Shown here: one piece after another, positions 3,561-54,544 of the stretch
Position numbering within the stretch: the first letter of the stretch is position 1
Layout of the letters: every line of letters begins with the position of its first letter
Origin: Candidatus Spiroplasma holothuricola
GTDB lineage: Bacteria > Bacillota_I > Bacilli_A > Mycoplasmatales > MT37
Assembly (NCBI GenBank): GCA_002135175.2
Contig: CP022928.1
Span: 179,805-243,804 of the forward strand
Direction: 5' to 3'
Length of the DNA stretch: 64,000 nucleotides
Notes under the pieces: generated by a model
What the model saw: only the letters and a program-made list of their open reading frames with translations
Databases searched by the model: none
What the model was told of the DNA's origin: nothing
Position numbers and translations under genes: made by a program

Positions 3561-3776
3561 ATGGTTTGATTGTATTTATTAATAGGATTCGTTTTTTTCT
3601 TAATTGGTCTTCTTGTTGGTTTTTTTCTTACTCGAATGATCATTATTCGAGAACTAAAAAAAAACCCACCGATTAATGCCAATATGATTCGAGCAATGTA
3701 CAAACAAATGGGTCGAAAACCTTCGGAAACACAAATTCAAGCAGTTGTATCAGCGATGATGCGACACAAGCAATAG
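3561..3776 (+). CDS. UPF0154 (YneF-like) small membrane protein
   Basis: One N-terminal TM helix followed by LKKNPPINANMIRAMYKQMGRKPSETQIQ, which closely resembles the conserved YneF core (KKNPPINE.M.R.MM.QMG.KPSQ). ATG 3561 lies upstream of the track start and is reached through a TGA codon. Confidence 0.8.
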
Positions 3777-3958: not shown

Positions 3959-5434
3959 GTGAATTTTCTTTTTCCCTTTCTGTTTTTTCAGATCAAGACC
4001 AAAGTTAACTTATGAATTTCGCATTTTAGTGAAGATTCTTTTTCGTCAAATGAGAATACTCAAACTTCATCACCAAATGAAAACGAAGATTTTTCTGGAA
4101 AAATTAACGTCAACAAAAATAACAATTCTTCTAATAATTACTTATTAAATTTATTATCGGAGCGTTGATTTCGAATTGCATTTATTCTTATTCTTGTGAT
4201 TGTTGGGTTTTTATTACTCAACCTAATTGGTCCCCGAATTGCTCTTCTTTTCTTTACAATTTCGCCCTTGGTTATTGGTTATGGTTTGGTTTCAGCATTG
4301 CAACCACTTCAGCGTTTTTTTCAGCATTATGTTTCTCAGCGAACTGCCAAAATTGCTGCATCAAGTATCTTTCTGTTCATTATTTTGATCATCATTATTG
4401 GAATTTTTGTTGTCTTTTTTTTCGAATTAGAAACTCTTTATAACAGATTAATTAAAGCTGATGGAGATGAAGAAATTAATAAACTTTTACAAAAACTCAA
4501 TGGTGAAGGGAAGGATGGGATTAAGCTTTCTAATATTCATAAAATTGATTTCGTTCATAGTAGTAAGCAAGGAAGTTCATCAGAAGTTCACAAACTGACA
4601 ATATCATTGATTAATGGTGAAGATGAAATGGCTGAATATTCAGGAGAAAAGGTCGGAAGTTTATACACTTTAATTTTTTGATTGATTGATAGTGTTCCTA
4701 TACTCAAAAGCATTGGCATTAATTTAATTCGAACAGCCTACGGTTGAGGGCATACTGGTTACATTGAACGAGTTTTTTTGAATTATGCAATCGTTTTTGG
4801 ATTTGTTTATATAATTTTCTTCTCCTTAATCATCATGATGTTTGCTGTTTTTGAGCCACCACGAAATTTTTTTCGTCGAATTTGAAGTTTTTTAATTCAT
4901 GGTCAACCTTCTCAAATCCGAACAGAACTAGAATTTAAATTAAAAAAAAAATTAAAAGGATGATTGCGGGGATTATTTTTGGATCAATTGTATGTACTAA
5001 TTGGCACGGCCTTAGTCTTGCTTTTGATGGGCATTATTTTCCCCGAATCTAAGTTGTTGGGTAATGTAATTGTTTTGTCAATTATTGCGGCTTCATTTAA
5101 TCTAATTCCATACATTGGGCCATGAATTGGTGGTATTTTCATTGGAGGATTTGTTCTTAGCACTGTCGTTGAAACTGATGCCTCTCAATTTGTTTCATGA
5201 TTGCCATTTATTTTCACAATGATTGGCATTTTAATTATTCAAATCGGAGAATCAGCCCTGGTTGCACCCATTGTTTATTCGAATAATGTTCAATTAAGTC
5301 CAATTGCAATCATCATTCTTTTGTTGGTTTTTGGTGTCTTGTTCGGAATTTGATCAATGCCATTTGCAATTCCTGTTTTGTTAATTGCCCAAACAGTTTC
5401 GGAAGTTGTTTATAAGTGAAAATGAAAGCTTTAA
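3959..5434 (+). CDS. AI-2E / PerM (UPF0118) family transporter-like membrane protein
   Basis: Frame 2 is open from about 3959 to TAA 5432-5434, with 8+ in-frame TGA. It includes track ORF 4196-4681. It is multi-TM with the family motif NLIPYIGPWIGG. The start is uncertain: there is no in-frame ATG, and GTG 3959 is the first candidate. Confidence 0.65.
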
Positions 5435-6813
5435 CGCATCAAGAATTAAGAGCAAAATGATTCACATTTTGACAAAATCGAAAACATTTGGTTTTGCCAT
5501 CTGCTTCACTTGTGGCCGAGGACAATGGTTCATTGCTTTGGAATAATTCTGGTGTTGCTGGATTAAAACAATATTTTTTAGGGAATAAGAAACCTCCAGC
5601 ATCACGATTAACCAATATTCAAAAATCATTAAGAACAAGTGACTTGAGCTTAATTGGAATAACAAACCGCCATCTTAGTTTTTTCGAAATGATGGGTAAT
5701 TTTGCCATTGATGATTATGATCGTCGCCAAGCAATTTTATGAGCATGAGAATTTTTAACTAGTGTTCAAGAATTGAATATTGATCCTCAAAAAATCATTA
5801 TTGTTTATTTCAAAGAAGATCAAAAAACTTATCAAATTTTAAAAAATGATCTTAAATTAACTGATCAACAAATCGTTTCGGCCGGTCGAGAAACAAATTT
5901 TTGAGATTTAGGTGTTGGTCCTTGTGGTCCTAATCTTGAATTTTATTATGACTATGGTTCAGTTTTTGATGAGCAAAAACAAGGAATCAAGCTTTTGGAA
6001 AAGAACATTGAGAATAAACGTTATTTAGAAATTTGAAACATTGTTTTTTCGGAATTCATTAATGATGGCACCGGTAAATATCGACAATCTCCTACATCGA
6101 ATATTGATACGGGAGCCGGTTTGGAAAGAATATTGATGGTTTTGCAAAATAAACAAAACCCTTTTGAAACAGATTTGTTTGATTCAGCTCGAAAAAAATT
6201 GGAAAAGATATCAGGTGTTAATTATATTTCCTCACTACCTAATCAATGAAATTCAAAAATTTCTCAAAATAATTATTTTTTTCAAGTTATTCTTGATCAT
6301 ATTCGAGCCACAACCTTTATGCTTTCTGACCTATTAGCTTCAAATGAAAAAATTAATTTTCAAAAGGGTAGAGGATATATAATTCGAAAAATGATTCGGA
6401 CAGCAATAATGAAAACAAAGTTTTTGAATTCCAAACCTTTCATGATATCGACTTTAATTTCGTCATTTGTTGATTCGTTTCAACCCTTTTATCCAAACCT
6501 AGGCAAATACAAAAATACAATTGAACAGATTGTGATCAAGGAAGAAAATCAATTTCGATTACTCTTAAATCATTTAAAAATAAAGCAATTATTTGATAAA
6601 CCCCCACAATCACTTTCAGCACAGACGATTTTTTTACTAGTTACAAGTTTAGGATTCCCTTTAGAATTTATTGTGAACATTGCCCACCAAAAAAGTATTA
6701 AGTTAGATCTTGAGAATTTTCAAAAACTATGAACAAAGCACCAAAAACTTTCAGCTGATAAAAAAATAAAAAAAACATGAATTGAAAAACCAAAAAACTT
6801 TATTAAAAAATAA
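5422..6813 (+). CDS. alaS: alanyl-tRNA synthetase, catalytic plus tRNA-recognition part only (about 463 aa)
   Basis: ATG 5422 is in frame 1 with ORFs 5488-5742 and 6319-6732. I checked every codon of the gaps. Motifs: LWNNSGVAGLKQYFLG, RHLSFFEMMGNFAIDDY, GPCGPNLEFYYD, EIWNIVFSEF, DTGAGLERI, GRGYIIRKMIRTA, GFPLEF. It ends at TAA 6811-6813. Confidence 0.9.
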
Positions 6814-6964
6814 AATACCCCACAACTACGAAAAAAACTATCACAAAAGGTCAAGCATGATACAAGACTATTGACGAATTATTAAAAGAAGCCAAAGCAT
6901 GAATAAAAGAAGAAGAGAAAAAGCTGAAAAAATAAACTAAGTCTTTAAATTGATAATAATTATT

Positions 6965-8061: not shown

Positions 8062-8703
8062 ATGAACTTACCAGGAATGCATGTTTCATTGTCTAATCGG
8101 ACAAAACTAGAAATTCTTGATGTCCTTCAAGGAATTTCTCGTTATATATCTGGAATCCACATCGAAAAACCCTTAGTTGACTATGAAGGTGACGATATTT
8201 TTTTATTTTTAAAAAAACGTTATCCAACCAAAGACATCATTTTGAGTTTAGCCAACGAAACGGAAGTGACACCTGAACTTTTGCAATTGGTTCGTCACAA
8301 TTTCATTAGAATTGTTGCTATTTCGACAAAGTTAAAAGATTTGCAAAAATTTGTTGATTCATTACGTTCTCAAAAGAAAAAAATAATTCTTATTGGTACA
8401 GAATTTGATGAAAGTTTTTTAATTAAAAACAATATTAAAAATTTGTTTTTTTTTCAGCCTCAAAAAACCGGTAAAGTTTTGATTTGAGAAAATAAAATAA
8501 TTAATCAAATCAAAAAATATTCCACTGGTAATTACAATGTGCTGGTTGGAAGCATTAATGCACACAATGTAATGCAATTTCAAAAATTGGTTATTCAAAC
8601 TTTCGTTGTTCGTGAAGAATTATGTAGCTCTTTTAATTCAATTGGTACTTGTAAAGATATTTTTCAACAGGTTAAAAATTATTTTCTTGATGAAGATGCT
8701 TAG
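8062..8703 (+). CDS. hypothetical protein with a weak resemblance to ribulose-phosphate 3-epimerase-type TIM barrels
   Basis: ORF 8062-8487 continues through one TGA to TAG 8701-8703. The spacing of hydrophobic strands loosely tracks Rpe (see finding). The functional call is weak. Confidence 0.5.
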
Positions 8704-8734
8704 TTTTTAAAAATAAGTCAAAACTTTTTTGTTT

Positions 8735-9774
8735 ATGTCTAATTACCGTCTTTCTGATGTTGTCTACCTACCAATAAATCGAAGTCGTGAGTTTTATCCA
8801 TTTGCTTTTTTGTCTGAAAAAGTAAACAAATGAATTACGATCATTTTTGCATCTTTGCTATTTTTATTAGTATTTTCCAGATATCTGCCTGATATTCTTG
8901 TGTTTGTGGCAGAAATAATTGAAGTTAATGTTGTCCTTCAATATCCTGATACTAAGTTAATAAATCTTTTGGGTTTAACACTTCTTCTTGATTTATTAAT
9001 TTGGTTTTTGATGATTATTGCTGTCATTTATTTCTCTTTTATTTCAAATCCAAATATTGAATTTTACAAATTGTCTCCATTTTTATTTTGAGCCATTATT
9101 TCACTTTCAGAAATTATTGCTGGTAACATCATTTCCGGATTTCCAGATGCAACCAAGGATTCTAAACGGCAATTATTATTTATATTTTCCAACATTGTCA
9201 AAACCATTTCTGTTTTTTTGTTTTTCATTTTAAGTTGAAAATATTGAAAAAATGTTTTTTGAAAATTTCTTGAAAAACCACACAATATTTTTCTTTTCAT
9301 CATTGTTTTATGTTTTTTTTATTTCTATGTATCTTCACACTTTGATGAAATAAATTCAAAAAAAGAAAGCGGTACTAATCAAGATAACCTCGAAAAACTT
9401 TATGCCAACGGGGATAGCACTTTTAAAATATTTTTCATCATTGTAATTGTTGTTCTAGGAGTTCTTTTTGAAGAAATCGTTTTTCGTTTTGCTATTTTTC
9501 AGATTTTTGGCCGTCGTAATGCTTTGTTTGCCATTATTATTTCATCATTATTTTTTGCAACTCTTCATCATAATTCATTGTTAGCAGATAAATTTATTAA
9601 TAATGAAACTGCATACAATGTAAATGATATTGGTAAACACTATAAGTTACTACTGCCTTATTTTTTCATTGGATTATTATTTGCTAATTACTATGTTTTT
9701 AATGATTATGTATTGATTTATTCAATAGTTGCACACTCGATTCACAATGGATTTGTTTTAACAAAAATCCAATA

Positions 9775-9775
<1 letters not shown>
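8735..9775 (+). CDS. CPBP (CAAX/Abi) family intramembrane metalloprotease
   Basis: ATG 8735 is in frame 2 with ORFs 8855-9091 and 9524-9775, and the gap contains only TGA. It is multi-TM with the family motifs FEEIVFRF (EExxxR), FFATLHH (FxxxH) and HSIHNG (HxxxN). Confidence 0.8.
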
Positions 9776-12145
<2,370 letters not shown>

Positions 12146-12159
<14 letters not shown>

Positions 12160-12484
12160 GATTCAAGATTTTAAATTTGATTTGCAATTCATTACGCATT
12201 TACTTAACCGGACAAGAGTTGAGTTCACACCTCAAGAAATTAAAATTTTTCAAAGAAGATTAAAAAATTACATAATACCAGCTCTTGCAATTCTCGACCA
12301 AATACCATTAGATAAAAAAGAATCAGATTACTGACCAATAATTCCTTTGAGTACAAAATTGAGATCGACTCAACCATCTCCAAAACAAAAAAATTTGTTT
12401 GAATTGAACAAACGGCCTTTGACTAAAGAGAAACTTTTTCTTATCAAAAATGTTCGTTCTAATTTAGAAAAGAATGATGATTAA
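12146..12484 (+). CDS. gatC: Asp/Glu-tRNA amidotransferase subunit C
   Basis: A small ORF in frame 2 immediately upstream of gatA and overlapping it. The size and position are typical of gatC. There is no ATG, so the TTG 12146 start is a guess (the track starts at 12104). Confidence 0.6.
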
Positions 12485-13936: not shown

Positions 13937-15391
13937 ATGAATAAATCAGCTTTTTTCGTTATTCCCAAAATTGGATTAGAAATTCATTTCCAACTAAATA
14001 CAATAACCAAATTATTTTCCAATGTTTTAAATGCACCGAAAGACACCCCCAATACCAATGTCAGTAAATATGATTTAGGGTTTTCGGGTATTTTGCCTGT
14101 TCCTTCTTTAGAATCAGTAATCTTGGCCATTCGTGCATGTGGAATTTTGAAAGCAAAAATAGCCAATATCTTGAAATTCGATCGAAAGCATTATTTTTAT
14201 TTTGATCTTCCTCATGGTTATCAAATTACTCAAATCAGGGAACCAATTGGTCAAAAAGGACATCTGTCAATTAATGTTCCTTCTGAAAAAACAAAAAAAA
14301 TAACAATTGAATTTATTGCCCTCGAAGAAGATACAGCCAAAACGAAATATTCTGGTAATAATGTCTTGCTTGATTACAACCGGCATGGTGTTCCATTGAT
14401 TGAAGTGGTCACTGCCCCCGAATTCACTTCGATTGTCGAAGTGAAGATTTTTTTAAAAAAACTTTTTGCTTTGTTTTTTCAAGCTGGTGTGAGCACTTGT
14501 TCCTTGGCCGACGGGACAGTTCGAGTTGATCTTAATGTTTCTTCATCAATCAATGACCAAACTCATTTACGTACTGAAATTAAGAATTTAAATTCTTTAA
14601 ATAATTTAGAAAAAGCTTTTGTTCAAGAAATGGCAATTCAAAAAGAACATTTAATTCAAGAACAAATTCCTCAAACAAGTGAAACAAAAAGATTTTCTGA
14701 ATCAACCCAAAAATTAATTAAAATGAGAAAAAAATTTACTCCTGCCGATTATTTATTTTTTCCAGAGTTTTTGATTGCACCCATTAAAATTGAAAAAAAA
14801 TGAATCAATAATGGTCAATTTCATGGTCAATCAATCTTAGCGATTCATGAAGAATTTCTTGAAGAAATTGCCAGCCAACCAATCATTGATCAAATTTTTA
14901 TGATTGATCATTTTATGCTTCAACATCTTTACACATCATTATTTAAAAAATTTATTAGTTTCAAAACTTCAATTCTTTTCTTTCGAGAGTTCTATCTTCC
15001 TCATGATGTTTCTTCTGCTTGAATTTTAAAAAATATTAGTTTAATCGTTAAGCTATTGACAGTTTACGAAAGTAAAGTTATCAATTTTGATTTTGTGAAA
15101 AGCAATTTACTTGCTTTGTTAAAAAATGATAATTGAAATGTCTTAAATGAAATTAAAAACAAAATTTTGGAACATCCAAAACAACAAATAACAGAAACTG
15201 CAATCATCAACATCATTGAGCAACTTTGTGTTGCCGACCCATCAATCAAAAAAAGATGAATTAAAAATCCAGAAGCAACGGCACGATTTTTAATTGGACA
15301 AATTTTAAAAAAAACAAATCAAAAAGCTGATCCATCCTCAACTAAAAAGATTATTTATAAGATAATGGTTTCCCCGAAAGACACTATTTAA
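13937..15391 (+). CDS. gatB: Asp/Glu-tRNA amidotransferase subunit B
   Basis: ORF 13937-14803 extends through five TGA to TAA 15389-15391. Motifs: GLEIHFQLNT, FDRKHYFYFDLPHGYQITQ, ALEEDTAK. Confidence 0.9.
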
Positions 15392-30115: not shown

Positions 30116-30190
30116 GGGATTATAGCTTAGCGGCAAAGCACACGATTTATAATCGTGAGATCATGGGTTCGATCCCCATTAGTCCCACCA
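30116..30190 (+). tRNA. tRNA-Ile with genomic anticodon TAT (reads AUA)
   Basis: A manual fold fits: acceptor GGGATTA/TAGTCCC, D stem GCTT/AAGC, anticodon stem CACGA/TCGTG with loop TTTATAA (positions 34-36 = TAT), T arm ATGGG-TTCGATC-CCCAT, and an encoded CCA. Confidence 0.85.
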
Positions 30191-30884: not shown

Positions 30885-33428
30885 TTGAATAAAAATAATT
30901 TCGCCCCTAATTGAAAAAGGATTGGTGCCCGTTGTACTGATATTGGATTAAATATTATTTTTTTAATTATTGTCACAGTCATTTACAATTTAATTATTTT
31001 TGGTGAATTTCAAATTTTTGGCATACTTCAAGTAATCCAACAATTAATTCTTCTTTCACTTCAATTCATCATTTTTTTAATTTATTTTGTTGTGATTTCG
31101 ACACTCACCAAAGGGCAGACTTTGGGCAAAAAAATATTTTCTATTAGATTGATAACAGAAAATAAAAATAAAATTCCAATGCGAGTTTATTTTTTTCGAG
31201 AATTCTATATTCTTGTTTTGCCTTTGATAATTTCTTATTTATTGTTTATAATTTTCTCTACAATCTTTTCATCACCCTATCAATCCCAAAAGCTTGCTGC
31301 AAATTTTTTATTTTTTTGATTTTTTTTCTTATTTTTATTTCAAAAAATCAATAAAAATCATTGTTTATTTTATGATCGTTTTTTTCAAATTTTCGTTGTT
31401 AATGACAACAAAAAAATTGAAAAAGAAAAATTAAAAATTTTTAAAAATTTTTTTAAATCAACTTCTATGCCAACAAACACTGACAAAATTTTCGAAAAAT
31501 TAAACAAAGAACAAATGAAAGCCGTTGTGGCTTCTGATCAAAAAAACGCCTTGATCATTGCCGGTCCCGGAACTGGCAAGACCACAGTTTTGATTCACAA
31601 AATCATTCATTTAATTAAACACTATCGATTATTGCCTTGAAGAATTCTGGTGCTCACATTTACCAAAAAAGCTGCACTAAATGTTCGTGATCGACTCAAC
31701 AAAAAGATTAAATTGGATACTGATAAATACCAAATTTATACTTATCATGGTTTTTGTTACAGTTTTTTACTTGAAGAAATTAATTGAATAACGGAACTAA
31801 AAAATTTAGTAGTTATGGATGAAACGGATCAGAAAAACCTAGTGAAAAGCCTCATTATGGAAATCAGAGACCATCGAGAAAAAAAACTTGATGCAACAAC
31901 ATTAAAAACCGTTATTTCGTTTATCAATTTGAAAAACAGAAAACTTATTCAAAATAAAAAAAAATTCAGCAAATTATTCACAGAATACACAACTCTCAAT
32001 CAAGTTGATGATAAATTCATTGATTTTATTTGAACTATATCTTTAAAATATTCTGATTATAAAAAAAACCAAGGATTGATGGATTTTAATGATTTGTTGA
32101 TTGAAACTTACAATCTACTCAAAAATAATGTTAATTTATTGAAGAAATGACAAAAACGATTTGATGCAATTTTGATTGATGAGTTTCAAGACACCAGTTA
32201 TCTTCAGTACAGATTAATTGAATTGTTAACAAGTAAAGGAAAAGAAATCAAAACAACAGTGATTGGTGACCCTGATCAAACAATTTATGGATGAAGAGAT
32301 GCCAAAATTGAGTTCATTTTAAATTTTTGCAAAAATTTCTCACCGGCTGAAGAAATTAATTTAGTCAAAAACTATCGCTCAACAATAGGTATTGTCAATG
32401 TGGCCAAGCAGTTAATTCGAAATAATGAAAATCGTTCAAAAGGGGCACTCGAAGTTGTCAATTTTAATAATGAAAAAGTAAAAATATTTTATGAAAATGG
32501 TCGTTATACTCAAGCGAATACAATTGTTTCGGAAATAGAAGAATTAATTGAAGATGGAGCAAATCCCAAAAGTATTGCTATCCTTTATCGTTCACATTTT
32601 CTTTCTGGTGCATTAGAAAACTTTTTAGTCCAAAAAAAAATTAGTTATGTCATTTTCAAGGGTGTTCGATTTTTTTTGAGGTTAGAAATTAAGGATATGA
32701 TCAATTCACTTTCATTATTTTCCAAACCCAGAGATTTCAATGTTTCTTCAATTTTGCTATGAATAAAGGGATTAGGAGCTACTTCGGTGATCAAAATTCA
32801 AAAAATGGCCAAAGCTTACAATTTATCAATTTTTGAATTAATTGAAACCAATGATTTGTTAATGGTTAATACAAAAACAAGAACTGCAATTAAAAACTTG
32901 TTTGGACAAATTCCAAATTTTAAAAAATTAATGCAAAAAGAAGAAAGTTTATTAGCTTTTACGAAACAAATTTTTGATAATTTTTACAAACCATTTTTTG
33001 ACCAAAATTATTTGGATAAAGATTGAAGAATTAAACATATTGAAACATTTTTAGATATTGTTGATAACTTTGACAAAATGAATCTAAGATTATCATTAAA
33101 AGAAAAAATTCATCAATTTCTAAATGAAATCAAAATTAGCACTGATGCTGATTTCATCAAAGAAACAGATAGTATCAGCTTGATGACCATTCACAATGCC
33201 AAAGGACTTGAGTTTGATCATGTTTTTGTATTTGATGTCAGTCAAGAAATTTTCCCCACCAAAAAAAGTGAATTGGAAAACTTAGAAGAAGAAAGACGAA
33301 TTTTTTTTGTGGCCTTGACCCGAGCAAAGAAAAAATTATTTATTTTTACTAACATTTTTAATCAATCAATTTTCATTGATGAAATTGAGGATAGTGTTCA
33401 TATTGAAAAAAAGAAAGGTTATTTCTAA
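30885..33428 (+). CDS. RDD-domain membrane module fused in frame to a UvrD/PcrA-type SF1 helicase
   Basis: Frame 0 is continuous from TTG 30885 to TAA 33426-33428 (ORFs 31092-31319, 31815-32033, 32400-32762, 32787-33026, 33078-33428; I checked every gap codon and found only TGA). The N-terminal 190 aa is RDD-like (R.GARCTD..., KGQTLGKKIFSIRL, 3 TM). The helicase motifs are AGPGTGKT, DEFQDT, GDPDQTIYGWR, NYRS, TIHNAKGLEF and FFVALTRAKK. The internal ATG 31467 is an alternative helicase start. Confidence 0.8.
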
Positions 33429-51494: not shown

Positions 51495-53987
51495 CTAAAT
51501 TTTATCTTTTAATAAATCTTTATATTTTTTTTTCTTTTCTCGTTCTTTTTCAACAATTTCTGGATTTGCCTTGTTAACAAAATCTTCATTAGCCAATAAT
51601 TTTTCAGTTCTTGCCAATTCTTTTTCAATTTTAGTTCGATCTAATTCATCAGTGCTTTCACTTTTTTGAATGATGATTTTTTGTTCTCAGTCTTTCACTA
51701 GACTCACTATTTCACATTGAAACGGGAAAAGCATGGCATTGAGTTTATTCTTATCATTTTCGGAAATTTTTTCAGCAGAAGGGCTTTGATAAATAATTTT
51801 TGTATTGCCTTGAAATTTTTCTGAGTTTTCTTCTTTTGCTTGCAAAACTTTAAAAAAAACGTTGATCATTGCACTAAATTTTTTCACTAATTTGATTTTT
51901 GGAAAATGGGATAAAGCCATTTTTTGATTGGTTCGTTTTACTCAAAGGTAGTAAGTCACTTGGGGCATAAAAGGGTGCAAAAAGATCAATAAAGTACTTC
52001 AAATTCAATTCATTGTTTTTTTCGTCTCTTCAACACTGATGTTTTGTTCAAAAAACGATCAAGCAACTCTTAAATAAAAATTACTAAAATCTTTTCATAT
52101 AAACTGAATTATTTTTTGAAGGGAAAAAGAGAATAGTTTTTGTTCATAATTTTTTTCGACATTGGTTCTTAAATTTTCAAACTTTTCCATAATTCATAGA
52201 TTAATTGGTTCTTCAATTTGATCTGGGGGTTCAATTTTTAATTGAACTGATAAATTTTTTTCTATAAATTGGTCAATATTAATCAATTTGTTAACAAATT
52301 GAGCTGATTGGATCAGTTTATCTTCGTCAAAAATCAGATCTTCTCCAATTTTGTAATTGCTCAAAAGATAAAATCGCAAAGCACCACTTCCATATTTTTT
52401 AATCAATTCATCAGGAGCAATGGCATTGCCTTTTGATTTAGACATTTTTTGATTGTCTTTGGTTCTGATTAATCCATGAATCAGCACTTGGTTAAAAGGA
52501 ATTTGCTTTGTAAAATGATGATGCAAGAACAACATTCGGGCCACTCAGAAGAAAATGATGTCATAACTAGTAACTAAACAAGTAATTGGAAAAAAAGGGC
52601 TCTTGATAATGCTACTCTCGTTTTTTCAATCAAAATTGACTAGAGTTCATAAACCAGAAGAAAATCACGTATCCAAAACATCCTCAGAACGAATTCAATC
52701 ATCACCAAGTTCTGTTTCACTGGCAACGATTTTTTTGGTTTTTGTATTTTGATAAATTGGTAATTGATGACCTCAAGTCAATTGACGAGAAATGCATCAA
52801 TCTTGAATGTTTTTCAATCAATTTCAAAGGTAATTTTCATATTTTTTTGGTATGAAATGGATTTGATTTTTCTTCTTTTGTAAATCTTGAGCTCATTGTT
52901 TTGTTTTTAAAAATCATTGATTAGTTAAAAGCGGTTCAATAACAGAATTACTTCGACTAGAGATTGGGAGTGAATATATGTGTTGTTCTTCTTTTACAAA
53001 AGCATTTTTAAGATCAAGTTTTTTGATTATTTTTTCACGAGCTTCCAATCGATCAATTCCATTAAATTCATCAGAAAGTTCATTTAAAGTTCCATCATGA
53101 TTCAAAACTGAAATAGGTTTTAAATTATTTTTAATTGCTAAATTAAAATCAAAAAAATCATGAGCTGGGGTACATTTCACTACTCCTGTCCCGAAATCTG
53201 GATTGATTGTTTCGTCACTTAAAATTGGAATTTTTTGATCGTTTATTGGATTAATTACAAATTTACCAATTATTTTTTTATATCGCTCATCATGGGAATT
53301 AACAAAAAGGGCACAATCAACAAACATTGTTTCAGGACGGGTGGTGGCCACAGAAACATGTTTTTGATCATTTTCTGCTAATTTGTATTTAAAAAAATAA
53401 ATTTTTCCTTTAATTTCTCTGTGTTCTACCTCTATATTGGAAATCGCTGTTTCCAATGTGCAATCTCAATTAACAAGCTTTTTTTCTTGATAAATTAAGC
53501 CTTCATTGTAGAGACTAACAAAAGCTTTTGTTACAGTTTCTTTAAAATTTTGATCAAGAGTAAACCTTTCTTTTTCAGGATTGATAAGTAAATTTAAATT
53601 AGTTCATTGTTTTCGTATTGTTTCTTGTTTTTCTTTGGCTCAACTTTCAAAATATTTTCTTTTTTGAATGAGGTTTTTGGGAGCTAAACGGTTTTTTTTA
53701 ATTCATTTGTTTACTAAAACTTCAGTGGCAATACCAGCATGATCAAAACCAGGAATTCATAAAGTTTCAACTTCTTGAATTCGATTTCAACGAATAATTG
53801 CATCTTGGATGAAATTATTTAAAGCATGACCAAGATGTAATTTTCCAGTAATGTTGGGAGGAGGCATCAGCAAAGAAATTTTTGCTTTACTTAGTTGAGG
53901 TTTTAAATAAATTTGAAAACCAGGAATGAATTCTTTAATTGAATGTTGGGAAAAAAATTCAATATTTTTGTTTTGGTCATTATTCAT
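51495..53987 (-). CDS. valS: valyl-tRNA synthetase
   Basis: ORFs 51687-51920, 52194-52544, 52914-53456 and 53787-54053 are all in one frame, and I scanned the gaps. Motifs: [14 protein letters not shown] (HIGH), editing-domain TTRPETMF and [20 protein letters not shown], and a C-terminal coiled coil. The probable start is ATG 53987. Confidence 0.93.
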
Positions 53988-54544
53988 TATATTTTCCTTA
54001 ATTCCTCTATGAATGTTGAATATGCAGAAACAGAACTGGGGGAACCAACCCACTTTAAGTTCTTTTCTTTGAATAACATAACAAATGGTGTTCCCAATGT
54101 TAGAACACTATCTTTAGTATTGTCTGTTTTTAGCTTTTTTCAGGTTTCATTGTCGTTAAATTTGTCATTAAGAAAACTAATTAATTCTTTTTTAAAAATT
54201 TCATAGCTAGTAGTTGATTTTTGTAGTCATGAATATTCATCATAATAATAATAAACAAAAGTTTCATTTGCTGAATTTCTTTTTTGGGTATTTACAATTT
54301 CTTTATTAAGTTGATGATTGGAATTTTGGATATTTTTGTAAAACTTTTTACAATGGGAACAACTTTTCGTTCCAAAAAATGCCATGAAAGTTTTGTTTTG
54401 ATTATAGTTATTTTTGAGATTATTAATGTTATAACCGGGATGAACTTGACGTATTTGAGCAAACATATTTGGCACAATTGTCACTACTGACGTTACCAAA
54501 ATCAAAACGGTGAAAATCAATAAAACTATTCCTAGTTTTTTCAT
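53987..54544 (-). CDS. membrane-anchored thioredoxin-fold protein (CSHC motif)
   Basis: ORF 54227-54544 extends through two TGA to TAA 53987-53989. It has an N-terminal TM helix and then [13 protein letters not shown] (CxxC) and GTPFVMLF, as in thioredoxin-like proteins. Confidence 0.6.

What the first reader, a model, noticed from the sequence alone, without database searches (positions are those of the whole stretch)
5422..6813. Alanyl-tRNA synthetase ends after the catalytic and tRNA-recognition domains, with no editing or C-Ala domain
What the sequence shows:
- I read alaS codon by codon from ATG 5422 to TAA 6811-6813, about 463 codons.
- It contains the class II core and the tRNA-recognition region, through GRGYIIRKMIRTA and the YDTYGFP-equivalent LVTSLGFPLEF, then about 40 more residues, and then it stops.
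- The next 135 nt have no AlaRS-like frame.
- The next gene (6965) is a small membrane protein.

What is known: canonical bacterial AlaRS continues for roughly 400 more residues, comprising the editing domain (with HxxxH/CxxxH zinc motifs) and the C-Ala domain. An N-terminal fragment of about 460 residues of E. coli AlaRS is known to be sufficient for aminoacylation.

Inference: this organism appears to charge tRNA-Ala without cis-editing of Ser- or Gly-tRNA-Ala. Editing of tRNA-Ala is usually regarded as near-universal. From memory, editing-defective synthetases have been reported in Mycoplasma (LeuRS, PheRS, ThrRS), but I do not recall this for AlaRS.
Basis: partly seen in the sequence, partly recalled or inferred. 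Interest (0 to 1): 0.75.

Follow-up and report, generated by a model that had tools for sequence, protein, structure and literature searches.

The report
Naturally truncated, editing-less alanyl-tRNA synthetase
A deep-sea sea-cucumber symbiont with a 424-kb genome makes an alanyl-tRNA synthetase that keeps only the tRNA-charging half and has lost its proofreading and C-terminal domains; the same loss happened independently in other tiny-genome Mollicutes, including all blood-parasite mycoplasmas examined, although this proofreading is usually described as near-indispensable.

Summary
With genetic code 4 (nine in-frame TGA-Trp codons), 5422-6813 is one intact 463-codon alaS ending in TAA. It encodes only the catalytic and tRNA-recognition domains. 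No editing or C-Ala sequence exists downstream or anywhere else in the 64-kb window.

The window comes from 'Candidatus Spiroplasma holothuricola' (chromosome of 280,592 bp; genome 424.5 kb). A family relative, 'Ca. Oceanoplasma callogorgiae', has an 880-aa alaS with an editing domain in the same gene order. The short gene is therefore the positional orthologue of a full-length gene that lost its 3' half in place. It is not an assembly error, a paralogue or a Nanoarchaeum-type split.

AlaRSs of 407-463 aa ending at the same domain boundary arose at least three times independently in Mollicutes. All five hemoplasma species retrieved have 441-447-aa enzymes. A published survey found no AlaX in any Mollicute, and Dtd only in Acholeplasma.

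Most likely this is the sole AlaRS and works like the engineered E. coli 442N fragment, without tRNA-Ala proofreading. I could not search the other ~360 kb of this genome. No paper I could read describes the architecture. Two relevant papers were unavailable.

The parts
5422..6813 (+). alaS, short form: 463 codons plus TAA, code 4 (9 TGA-Trp). Encodes the aminoacylation unit only.
5422..6171 (+). Class II catalytic domain (about aa 1-250; boundary approximate). The residues equivalent to E. coli R69, W170, N212, D235 and G237 are all conserved, within QKSLRTS, NFWDLG, EIWNIVF and NIDTGAGLER.
   Evidence: Alignments to 1riq and 3hxu; invariant columns in A1 and A2
6172..6759 (+). tRNA-recognition (helical 'Mid') domain, about aa 251-446; boundary approximate.
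6343..6366 (+). N308 (equivalent to E. coli Asn303, which reads U70), then E309, then the inserted KINFQK (aa 310-315) that other AlaRSs lack.
   Evidence: E. coli alignment; A1; relatives P0270 and P0271 also carry insertions here
6640..6645 (+). V407-T408 in place of E. coli Tyr399-Asp400, the residues that read the 2-amino group of G3.
   Evidence: role of Asp400 from PMC6055181
6760..6810 (+). Lys-rich C-terminal tail (aa 447-463, DKKIKKTWIEKPKNFIKK), predicted disordered. It occupies the start of the linker that leads to the editing domain in full-length enzymes.
6814..6949 (.). 136-nt spacer after the TAA. No AlaRS-like reading frame and no terminator-like hairpin.
3959..5434 (+). AI-2E-family transporter gene overlapping the alaS start by 13 nt. 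Synteny anchor: the same gene sits directly upstream of the full-length alaS in 'Ca. Oceanoplasma callogorgiae'.
8062..12159 (+). Downstream synteny anchors: a 213-aa ORF (8062-8703; equated with the 639-bp 'Oceanoplasmataceae only' gene by size and position only), an Rce1/CAAX protease (8729-9775) and a 794-aa ORF (9775-12159) called ligA from its position and sequence, not scanned against Pfam. gatA and gatB follow at 12474 and 13937.

Best explanation
This is a genuine, expressed-frame, naturally minimised alanyl-tRNA synthetase. In the lineage of 'Ca. Spiroplasma holothuricola' (424.5-kb genome, gut endosymbiont of a hadal sea cucumber), the 3' half of an ancestral ~880-900-codon alaS was deleted in place. 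[quoted passage not shown] What remains is the catalytic domain, the tRNA-recognition domain and a short Lys-rich tail. This matches the engineered E. coli N-terminal fragments that still alanylate tRNA-Ala. SHOWN: the ORF and its domain content; the absence of any editing or C-Ala remnant in the window; orthology by synteny to a full-length gene; conservation of the alanine/ATP-binding residues; and independent recurrence of the same truncation in other Mollicutes. [quoted passage not shown] The organism would then tolerate some Ala-to-Ser/Gly statistical mistranslation. This fits the general erosion of synthetase editing in host-restricted Mollicutes.
For: The ORF is intact under code 4, with 20-26 stops in the alternative frames. 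Only PF01411 positions 1-437 of 552 are matched, and TIGR00344 positions 1-439 of 847 at 391.8 bits, below the 457 cut-off. Fold and sequence both match the AlaRS catalytic fragments. No editing or C-Ala homology exists in the window, and the controls are positive. Source genome: P0001 lies on a 280,592-bp contig, and 'Ca. S. holothuricola' has chromosomes of 143,947 and 280,592 bp, 29.6% GC and a tRNA-Ile(UAU) (PMC5861454); the window has 29.7% GC and a tRNA-Ile(tat). Synteny: O. callogorgiae has hisS-aspS-UPF0154-AI-2E-alaS(2643 bp, PF01411+PF07973)-hypothetical-hypothetical-CAAX-ligA-hypothetical-gatA-gatB, the same order as the window. The distance from the alaS start to the conserved downstream gene is 1,416 bp shorter in the window. 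The closest relatives P0270 (912 aa) and P0271 (894 aa) are full-length with intact HxxxH and CxxxH motifs, and group with the window protein in 59/60 bootstraps. Recurrence: P0005, P0019, P0308, P0338 and P0368 all have real stops and no remnants. Five hemoplasma species have 441-447-aa enzymes, four of them on complete-genome-sized contigs of 0.51-0.76 Mb. The six short forms measured all end at E. coli-equivalent residues 439-455. Monophyly of the short forms was found in 0/60 bootstraps. Purifying selection: 3 of 3 differences between the strains L001 and L002 are synonymous. Literature: the minimal active E. coli fragment is 442N (PMC11392972); none of 39 Mollicutes, including 3 hemoplasmas, has AlaX, and only A. 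laidlawii has Dtd (PMC4014445).
Against: Only 64 kb of the 424.5-kb genome could be read. The search for a detached editing gene elsewhere was indirect and capped at the best 120 hits. The enzyme is the most derived of 30 compared, differing at 29 of 131 near-invariant columns. It has Thr where E. coli has Asp400, and D400A/N cut E. coli kcat/Km about 25-fold (PMC6055181). A review states that bacterial AlaRS needs C-Ala-mediated dimerisation for efficient charging (PMC8583063), so activity may be low. tRNA-Ala is not in the window, so its G3:U70 pair could not be checked. No biochemical or proteomic data exist.
Confidence: 0.8

Rival explanations
1. Split or trans-edited system. The editing function survives elsewhere in the genome as a free-standing AlaX-like protein or an AlaRS 'beta' subunit, or Dtd clears Gly-tRNA-Ala. 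tRNA-Ala would then still be proofread, in trans.
For: Nanoarchaeota encode AlaRS as two genes half a chromosome apart (PMC11392972). AlaX and Dtd are widespread back-ups (PMC6918089, PMC8583063). About 360 kb of this genome was not inspected.
Against: The Nanoarchaeal split lies at about residue 368, so its alpha subunit lacks the tRNA-recognition domain. Here the break is at about residue 455. Synteny shows a net deletion of about 1.4 kb at the locus rather than a relocation. No AlaX homologue was found in 39 Mollicutes, including M. suis, which has a 445-aa AlaRS; Dtd was found only in A. laidlawii. The window and 7 related loci contain no editing homologue. No protein from the 280,592-bp contig appears among the best 120 hits to the closest available editing-domain probe, and none from a 143,947-bp contig either (weak evidence).
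Confidence: 0.12
2. Decaying or non-functional gene. The short alaS is a pseudogene remnant or a repurposed 'AlaRS-related' protein, and alanylation is supplied by another copy or by the host.
For: It has the highest deviation at near-invariant positions (29 of 131). Thr replaces Asp400. It scores below the NCBI alaS equivalog cut-off, and NCBI labels the hemoplasma counterparts 'alanine--tRNA ligase-related protein' or 'hypothetical protein'.
Against: The frame is open for 463 codons in a 30% GC genome where other frames have a stop about every 20 codons. Every residue that binds alanine or ATP is conserved. It sits at the orthologous alaS position in a 424-kb genome with single copies of the other synthetases seen. 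The V-T/V-S substitution is shared with the full-length family members P0270 and P0271 and with a full-length Malacoplasma enzyme, so it is a lineage trait and not decay. The short state has been retained across hemoplasma species that are only 53-63% identical to the query hemoplasma enzyme.
Confidence: 0.05
3. Sequencing or assembly artefact: a frameshift, a premature stop from a read error, or a collapsed assembly created a false truncation.
For: Low-coverage assemblies do break alaS this way, as in L084 (2x coverage), L085 (1.1x coverage) and Mycoplasma sp. ATU-Cv-508.
Against: In those artefacts the editing and C-Ala pieces are still present downstream in other frames (E 1e-60 to 1e-86). 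The window has none. The flanking gene order is colinear with a relative. The genome is reported as complete. The same architecture is found in at least 10 other independent sequences.
Confidence: 0.02

Closest known systems
Engineered or crystallised N-terminal AlaRS fragments (E. coli 441N/442N, PDB 3HXU; Aquifex aeolicus N453, PDB 1RIQ)
   Same: Same two domains and the same fold (TM about 0.8). The natural protein ends at about E. coli residue 455, just beyond the 442N fragment reported as the minimal alanylation-competent unit.
   Different: Those are laboratory truncations of four-domain enzymes. This is a natural gene that appears to be the cell's only AlaRS. It carries Thr at the Asp400 position, an insertion after Asn303, and a Lys-rich tail.
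Hemoplasma AlaRS (M. suis 445 aa, 'Ca. M. haemolamae' 446, 'Ca. M. haematominutum' 447, M. ovis 443, M. wenyonii 441)
   Same: Same PF01411-only architecture, ending at the same boundary where measured, in very reduced, uncultivable, host-restricted Mollicutes.
   Different: Independent origin: the hemoplasma clade has 60/60 bootstrap support, while the window protein groups with full-length Oceanoplasmataceae enzymes in 59/60. Identity is only about 35%. The synteny differs (mnmA-alaS). I found no paper describing the hemoplasma state either.
Full-length Oceanoplasmataceae AlaRS ('Ca. Oceanoplasma callogorgiae' 880 aa; P0270 912 aa; P0271 894 aa)
   Same: True orthologues: same gene neighbourhood (for O. 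callogorgiae), 46-48% identity for P0270 and P0271, and shared family quirks at the G3:U70-reading sites.
   Different: They keep the editing domain (O. callogorgiae: PF07973; P0270 and P0271: HxxxH and CxxxH motifs; P0271 hits the AlaXM model over residues 475-697) and continue for about 200 further residues, not domain-checked.
Naturally editing-defective synthetases of Mycoplasma (LeuRS, PheRS, ThrRS; Li et al. 2011) and of host-restricted bacteria (Melnikov et al. 2018)
   Same: Same evolutionary setting and the same presumed consequence, a statistical proteome.
   Different: The accessible literature names LeuRS, PheRS and ThrRS. It singles out AlaRS editing as the activity under the strongest constraint, with uniquely redundant back-ups (PMC6918089). 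Here both the editing and the C-Ala domains are gone entirely.
Split AlaRS of Nanoarchaeota (alpha and beta subunits)
   Same: A stand-alone N-terminal AlaRS polypeptide in a tiny genome.
   Different: That split lies at about residue 368, so the alpha subunit lacks the tRNA-recognition domain and needs beta for G3:U70-specific charging. The beta subunit is retained. Here the ORF holds the complete aminoacylation unit and no second half is detectable.

Membership tests
Class II alanyl-tRNA synthetase, aminoacylation unit (Pfam PF01411) | Significant match to the family model across the catalytic and tRNA-recognition regions | tested here: met
   PF01411 E 2.9e-107, 359.9 bits (cut-off 30.3), model positions 1-437; PDB hits at 1e-61 to 1e-71
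Class II alanyl-tRNA synthetase, aminoacylation unit (Pfam PF01411) | Alanine/ATP pocket residues (E. coli R69, W170, N212, D235, G237) | tested here: met
   All conserved in the alignments to the E. coli and Aquifex fragments and invariant in A1 and A2
Class II alanyl-tRNA synthetase, aminoacylation unit (Pfam PF01411) | Three-dimensional fold of the AlaRS catalytic fragment | tested here: met
   AF2 pLDDT 86.7; Foldseek E 1e-33 to 1e-38, TM 0.78-0.86 to 3hxu, 1riq and 9jdn
Class II alanyl-tRNA synthetase, aminoacylation unit (Pfam PF01411) | G3:U70-reading residues Asn303 and Asp400 (E. coli numbering) | tested here: inconclusive
   Asn303 is present as N308 but is followed by an insertion. 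Asp400 is replaced by T408. Of 190 AlaRSs, 186 have Asp or Glu there. Thr or Ser is shared with the family members P0270 and P0271 and with a Malacoplasma enzyme. tRNA-Ala is not in the window.
Canonical four-domain bacterial AlaRS (NCBIfam TIGR00344 alaS equivalog) | Score above the curated equivalog cut-off over the full 847-position model | tested here: not met
   391.8 bits against a cut-off of 457.05, model positions 1-439 only. The family relative P0271 scores 637.3.
Canonical four-domain bacterial AlaRS (NCBIfam TIGR00344 alaS equivalog) | Editing domain (PF07973 tRNA_SAD; HxxxH and CxxxH zinc motifs) | tested here: not met
   Absent from the protein and from all six frames of the window. 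Present in L084, P0270, P0271 and O. callogorgiae.
Canonical four-domain bacterial AlaRS (NCBIfam TIGR00344 alaS equivalog) | C-Ala domain (DHHA1-like, PF02272) | tested here: not met
   No match in the protein or the window
Split AlaRS (Nanoarchaeota type) | Break at about residue 368, leaving the tRNA-recognition domain on the second subunit | tested here: not met
   The ORF extends to about E. coli residue 455 and includes the whole recognition domain
Split AlaRS (Nanoarchaeota type) | A second gene encoding the remainder elsewhere in the genome | not testable with these tools
   Only 64 of 424.5 kb were readable. The window is negative, and an indirect database probe was negative but capped.
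Trans-editing of tRNA-Ala (AlaX, Dtd) | Free-standing AlaX-type or Dtd gene in the same genome | not testable with these tools
   None in the window (for AlaX-type; Dtd was not specifically scanned). The literature reports none in 39 Mollicutes except Dtd in A. laidlawii (PMC4014445). This genome was not in that survey.
Naturally editing-deficient synthetases of host-restricted, genome-reduced bacteria | Host-restricted organism with a strongly reduced genome | tested here: met
   Identified as 'Ca. S. holothuricola', 424.5 kb, a gut endosymbiont
Naturally editing-deficient synthetases of host-restricted, genome-reduced bacteria | Measurable mistranslation (Ala to Ser/Gly) or loss of deacylation activity | not testable with these tools
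   Needs enzymology or proteomics

The most novel reading that the evidence does not exclude
At least three independent Mollicute lineages (this Oceanoplasmataceae symbiont, the whole hemoplasma clade, and one or more unnamed code-4 lineages) live with no proofreading of tRNA-Ala at all, neither cis nor trans. Each cut alaS convergently at the same domain boundary. The 'serine paradox' editing checkpoint, usually presented as near-universal and uniquely redundant, would then be dispensable in nature. Either proteome-wide Ala-to-Ser/Gly noise is tolerated, or these minimal enzymes or their altered tRNA-recognition sites have found another route to fidelity.
Probability: 0.55. Interest if true: 0.75.

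Novelty: new variant of a known kind. Interest (0 to 1): 0.6.

Why it matters
AlaRS is the textbook case of a synthetase that cannot avoid activating serine and glycine. Reviews describe its four-domain architecture as conserved 'throughout evolution' and its editing as backed up by uniquely redundant factors (PMC8583063, PMC6918089). Editing defects cause growth defects in E. coli and neurodegeneration in mice.

Natural organisms that have deleted the editing and C-Ala domains, repeatedly and stably, are a ready-made test of how indispensable that checkpoint is. They also show what a minimal AlaRS needs in order to work. They can reveal how much Ala-to-Ser/Gly noise a small proteome tolerates (4.6% Ala in this window).

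The enzymes are small and could be expressed and assayed directly. There is a practical side too. NCBI's annotation labels several of these proteins 'alanine--tRNA ligase-related protein' or 'hypothetical protein'. Completeness checks and minimal-gene-set analyses may therefore wrongly score these genomes as lacking alaS.

The finding is tempered because the hemoplasma sequences have been public since about 2011, and a 2018 survey that I could not read may already list them.

Tried and rejected

2. The look-up of encoding contigs had no record of P0001 or of two TGA-free ribosomal proteins of the window. The fetch of an annotated region does not hold CP022928 or CP022929. The rest of the genome therefore could not be read.

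3. Several short hits were artefacts, not natural short forms:
- P0034 (463 aa) runs into the beta-barrel and probably stops at a TGA read as stop (inferred from its C-terminus, contig not fetched).
- P0070 is one fragment of a broken gene in Mycoplasma sp. ATU-Cv-508.
- P0006 (L084) and P0109 (L085) are full-length genes frameshifted at 2x and 1.1x coverage.

4. The apparent 4-residue deletion in the 'SGKHNDL' loop relative to Aquifex and E. coli is also seen in the other Bacilli and Mollicute sequences examined. It is not an anomaly.

5. A first tree suggested that the three short forms plus L084 might form one clade (41-52% support). Adding the true relatives P0270 and P0271 and the hemoplasmas overturned this.

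6. I first took Thr at the Asp400 position as a sign of decay. It proved to be a family trait shared with full-length enzymes.

7. Probing the protein collection with L084's editing and C-Ala region for hits on the 280,592- or 143,947-bp contigs gave none. The list is cut at 120 hits (at least 166 bits), so this is only a weak negative.

8. He et al. 2018 (PMC5734040), Melnikov et al. 2018 (PMC6298100) and Guo et al. 2009 (PMC4559334) are not held.

9. No terminator-like hairpin follows the stop, and promoter-like matches are at chance level. This is uninformative.
Full report
**The observation**

Under the standard bacterial code the region is shredded into small ORFs. The window has 29.7% G+C and uses TGA for tryptophan (207 TGA against 19 TGG in 46 genes). 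Read with table 4, 5422-6813 is one ORF of 463 codons plus TAA. It contains nine in-frame TGA codons. The two alternative frames of the same stretch hold 20 and 26 TAA/TAG stops, so the open frame is maintained by selection.

Pfam reports a single domain, tRNA-synt_2c (E 2.9e-107), matched over model positions 1-437 of 552. The protein aligns end to end with the crystallised 'catalytic fragments' of Aquifex AlaRS (residues 3-425) and E. coli AlaRS (441 residues). An AlphaFold model built on 30 sequences (pLDDT 86.7, pTM 0.87) superimposes on these fragments with TM 0.78-0.86. It leaves only a disordered Lys-rich tail, residues 447-463. Counting from the conserved GFP motif, the protein ends at about E. 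coli residue 455.

An HMM built from the editing and C-Ala regions of seven relatives finds nothing in any frame of the 64-kb window (best E 0.59). The same HMM scores 1e-60 to 1e-86 on positive controls.

**Is it an artefact?**

Two low-coverage assemblies show what a falsely truncated alaS looks like: L084 at 2x coverage and L085 at 1.1x coverage. In both, the tRNA_SAD and DHHA1 pieces lie immediately downstream in other frames. Nothing like that follows the window's TAA.

**Where the window comes from**

The identical protein (P0001) is on record from an NCBI contig of 280,592 bp. [quoted passage not shown] It has a complete genome of two chromosomes, 143,947 and 280,592 bp, with 29.6% G+C and an unusual tRNA-Ile(UAU) (PMC5861454). 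The window has the same G+C content and a tRNA-Ile(tat) at 30116-30190. The accession of chromosome 1 is CP022928. The organism is now placed in the family Oceanoplasmataceae (PMC11535214; 2026 preprint).

**Orthology and mode of origin**

Supplementary Data 1 of PMC11535214 lists the gene order of the family member 'Ca. Oceanoplasma callogorgiae':

- hisS, aspS, UPF0154, AI-2E transporter
- alaS (2,643 bp; PF01411 + PF07973)
- two hypothetical genes, the second marked 'Oceanoplasmataceae only'
- CAAX protease, ligA, a small hypothetical, gatA, gatB

The window has the same order (gene identities from Pfam where scanned, otherwise from sequence and position):

- hisS at 391, aspS at 1759, a UPF0154-like ORF at 3570, AI-2E at 3959
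- alaS at 5422
- small ORFs, then a 213-aa ORF at 8062
- Rce1/CAAX at 8729, ligA at 9775, gatA at 12474, gatB at 13937

The short gene is therefore the positional orthologue of a full-length alaS. The distance from the alaS start to the conserved downstream gene is 1,416 bp shorter in the window. That is about the size of the missing ~417 codons.

In an exhaustive search of 1.84 billion representatives, the closest relatives are full-length: P0270 (912 aa, 46% identity) and P0271 (894 aa, 48% identity). Both retain the HxxxH and CxxxH zinc motifs. They group with the window protein in 59 of 60 bootstraps. The truncation is thus a lineage-specific deletion in place.

**Recurrence**

Other AlaRSs with genuine stops at the same boundary, and with no editing remnant in the fetched locus, are these:

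| Protein | Length | Locus | Notes |
|---|---|---|---|
| P0005 | 450 aa | L001, L002 | GC about 16%; two strains whose 3 differences are all synonymous |
| P0019 | 454 aa | L003 | GC 18.5% |
| P0308 | 441 aa | L086 | code 4 (in-frame TGA) |
| P0338 | 429 aa | L087 | no in-frame TGA |
| P0368 | 407 aa | L089 | mnmA-alaS-greA |
| P0388 | 446 aa | L088 | from CP003731, the complete 756,845-bp genome of 'Ca. Mycoplasma haemolamae' Purdue (identity confirmed in PMC12819477) |

Querying with the hemoplasma enzyme shows that the hemoplasma clade shares the state: M. suis 445 aa, 'Ca. M. haematominutum' 447, M. wenyonii 441 and M. ovis 443. All are PF01411-only and 53-63% identical to the query enzyme. 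Several are labelled 'alanine--tRNA ligase-related protein' or 'hypothetical protein'.

The window protein and the M. suis protein both fall below NCBI's alaS equivalog cut-off, at 392 and 380 bits against 457. The six short forms measured (window, P0005, P0019, P0308, P0338, M. haemolamae) end at E. coli-equivalent residues 439-455.

In a neighbour-joining analysis the hemoplasmas form a clade (60/60). P0005 groups with the full-length L084 and P0272 (43/60). The window groups with full-length Oceanoplasmataceae enzymes (59/60). Monophyly of the short forms is never recovered (0/60). There were at least three independent truncations at the same domain boundary.

**How it most likely works**

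According to PMC11392972, the E. coli 442-residue N-terminal fragment is the minimal variant that alanylates tRNA-Ala, while 368N is inactive. The natural 463-aa protein contains everything in 442N. It conserves the residues that hold alanine and ATP: the equivalents of R69, W170, N212, D235 and G237. I therefore infer that it is the cell's alanine-charging enzyme. I also infer that it works without the C-Ala tRNA clamp and without hydrolysing Ser- or Gly-tRNA-Ala in cis.

Trans-editing is unlikely but not excluded. A survey of 39 Mollicutes, including M. suis, M. haemofelis and M. haemocanis, found no AlaX, YbaK or ProX homologue in any of them. It found Dtd only in Acholeplasma laidlawii (PMC4014445). 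M. suis thus combines a 445-aa AlaRS with no known tRNA-Ala deacylase. For 'Ca. S. holothuricola' itself, only 64 of 424.5 kb could be inspected. An indirect probe of the protein collection was negative but capped.

Editing loss in this genome is not indiscriminate. ValRS in the window (51495-54053, minus strand) keeps the CP1 motif [12 protein letters not shown]. Alanine makes up 4.6% of the window's proteome. I infer this is below the level in larger-genome bacteria, which would limit the mistranslation load.

**A second peculiarity**

E. coli Asn303 and Asp400 read the G3:U70 identity pair. Tyr399, Asp400 and Gly403 are called strictly conserved, and D400A/N lower kcat/Km about 25-fold (PMC6055181). 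The window enzyme has N308 followed by an inserted KINFQK, and V407-T408 in place of Tyr399-Asp400. Among 190 AlaRSs, 186 have Asp or Glu at that position.

The full-length family members share the change (P0270 LVTSKG, P0271 LVSSSG) and also have insertions after the Asn303 site. A full-length Malacoplasma enzyme also has V-T. This is therefore a trait of the family and is unrelated to the truncation. It hints at a modified way of reading the acceptor stem. tRNA-Ala is not in the window, so this could not be pursued.

**Comparison with what is known**

The phenomenon belongs to the known erosion of synthetase editing in host-restricted bacteria: LeuRS, PheRS and ThrRS in Mycoplasma (Li 2011), and the broader survey of Melnikov 2018. 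What differs is the enzyme and the extent of the loss. Reviews describe AlaRS as four-domain 'throughout evolution' (PMC8583063). They describe its editing as protected by uniquely redundant mechanisms (PMC6918089).

It is not a Nanoarchaeum-type split. There the break is at about residue 368 and the beta subunit is retained.

Full-text searches found no paper describing a natural bacterial AlaRS that lacks the editing and C-Ala domains, in hemoplasmas or elsewhere. Three papers could not be read: the Melnikov 2018 survey, which included AlaRS according to my recollection of its abstract, the genome paper of He et al. 2018, and Guo et al. 2009. Prior mention therefore cannot be excluded. The hemoplasma sequences have been public for over a decade.

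**Verdict**

This instance is one member of a recurrent, convergent and apparently undescribed architecture. I rate it a new variant of a known kind, with interest 0.6. The decisive missing pieces are a whole-genome scan for AlaX, Dtd or beta-like genes, the tRNA-Ala sequence, and enzymology or proteomics.

Noticed in passing
window 6343-6366 and 6640-6645; also P0270, P0271, P0062: AlaRSs of the window's family (window, P0270, P0271) carry Val-Thr or Val-Ser in place of the 'strictly conserved' Tyr399-Asp400, and insertions next to the Asn303 site. These are the two contacts that read the G3:U70 identity pair. A full-length Malacoplasma enzyme also has Val-Thr. This suggests a modified tRNA-Ala recognition mode in these lineages, independent of the truncation.
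   Followed up: partly
P0415, P0417, P0418 (hemoplasma AlaRSs); window 5422-6813: The short AlaRSs score below NCBI's alaS equivalog cut-off (about 380-392 bits against 457). In RefSeq or GenBank they are named 'alanine--tRNA ligase-related protein' or even 'hypothetical protein'. Automated completeness or minimal-gene-set analyses could therefore score these genomes as lacking alaS.
   Followed up: partly
window 30116-30190: A tRNA-Ile with anticodon UAU, rare in bacteria. It matches the published tRNA set of 'Ca. Spiroplasma holothuricola' (no tilS) and helped identify the source genome.
   Followed up: yes
window 51495-54053 (minus strand): The 852-aa ValRS retains its CP1 editing region, including the motif [12 protein letters not shown]. 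Loss of editing in this genome is therefore selective and not global.
   Followed up: partly
window 5416-5434: The alaS ATG (5422) lies 13 nt inside the end of the upstream AI-2E transporter gene (stop 5432-5434). An in-frame GTG at 5416 is an alternative start. In Oceanoplasma the RAST call for alaS (start at 135297) likewise overlaps the transporter (135285-136625), while the DRAM call (135210) does not. An overlap would suggest translational coupling.
   Followed up: no
cluster of P0070 (Mycoplasma sp. ATU-Cv-508, 683,827-bp contig): alaS is present as five fragments (439, 266, 197, 107 and 84 aa), while the sister strain ATU-Cv-703 has an intact 846-aa gene. This is either a pseudogenising alaS or an error-rich assembly.
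   Followed up: no
window 30885-33428: An 847-aa ORF whose first ~170 residues look like a multi-pass membrane segment, followed by a UvrD/PcrA-type helicase with a Walker A motif (AGPGTGKTT). This is an unusual fusion if real. It was judged by eye only and not run through Pfam.
   Followed up: no
NCBIfam NF002436: NCBI curates a separate 595-position 'alanine--tRNA ligase' equivalog (PRK01584). Other intermediate-length AlaRS architectures may therefore already be recognised. I did not check which organisms it covers or which domains it lacks.
   Followed up: no
L087 (ENA ERZ27241723, 2.2-kb contig, GC 39.5%): A 429-aa AlaRS with a real TAA stop and no in-frame TGA. It branches outside the Mollicutes, near the Bacilli and the outgroup. 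Short AlaRSs may therefore not be confined to code-4 Mollicutes, but the contig is too short to judge the context.
   Followed up: no
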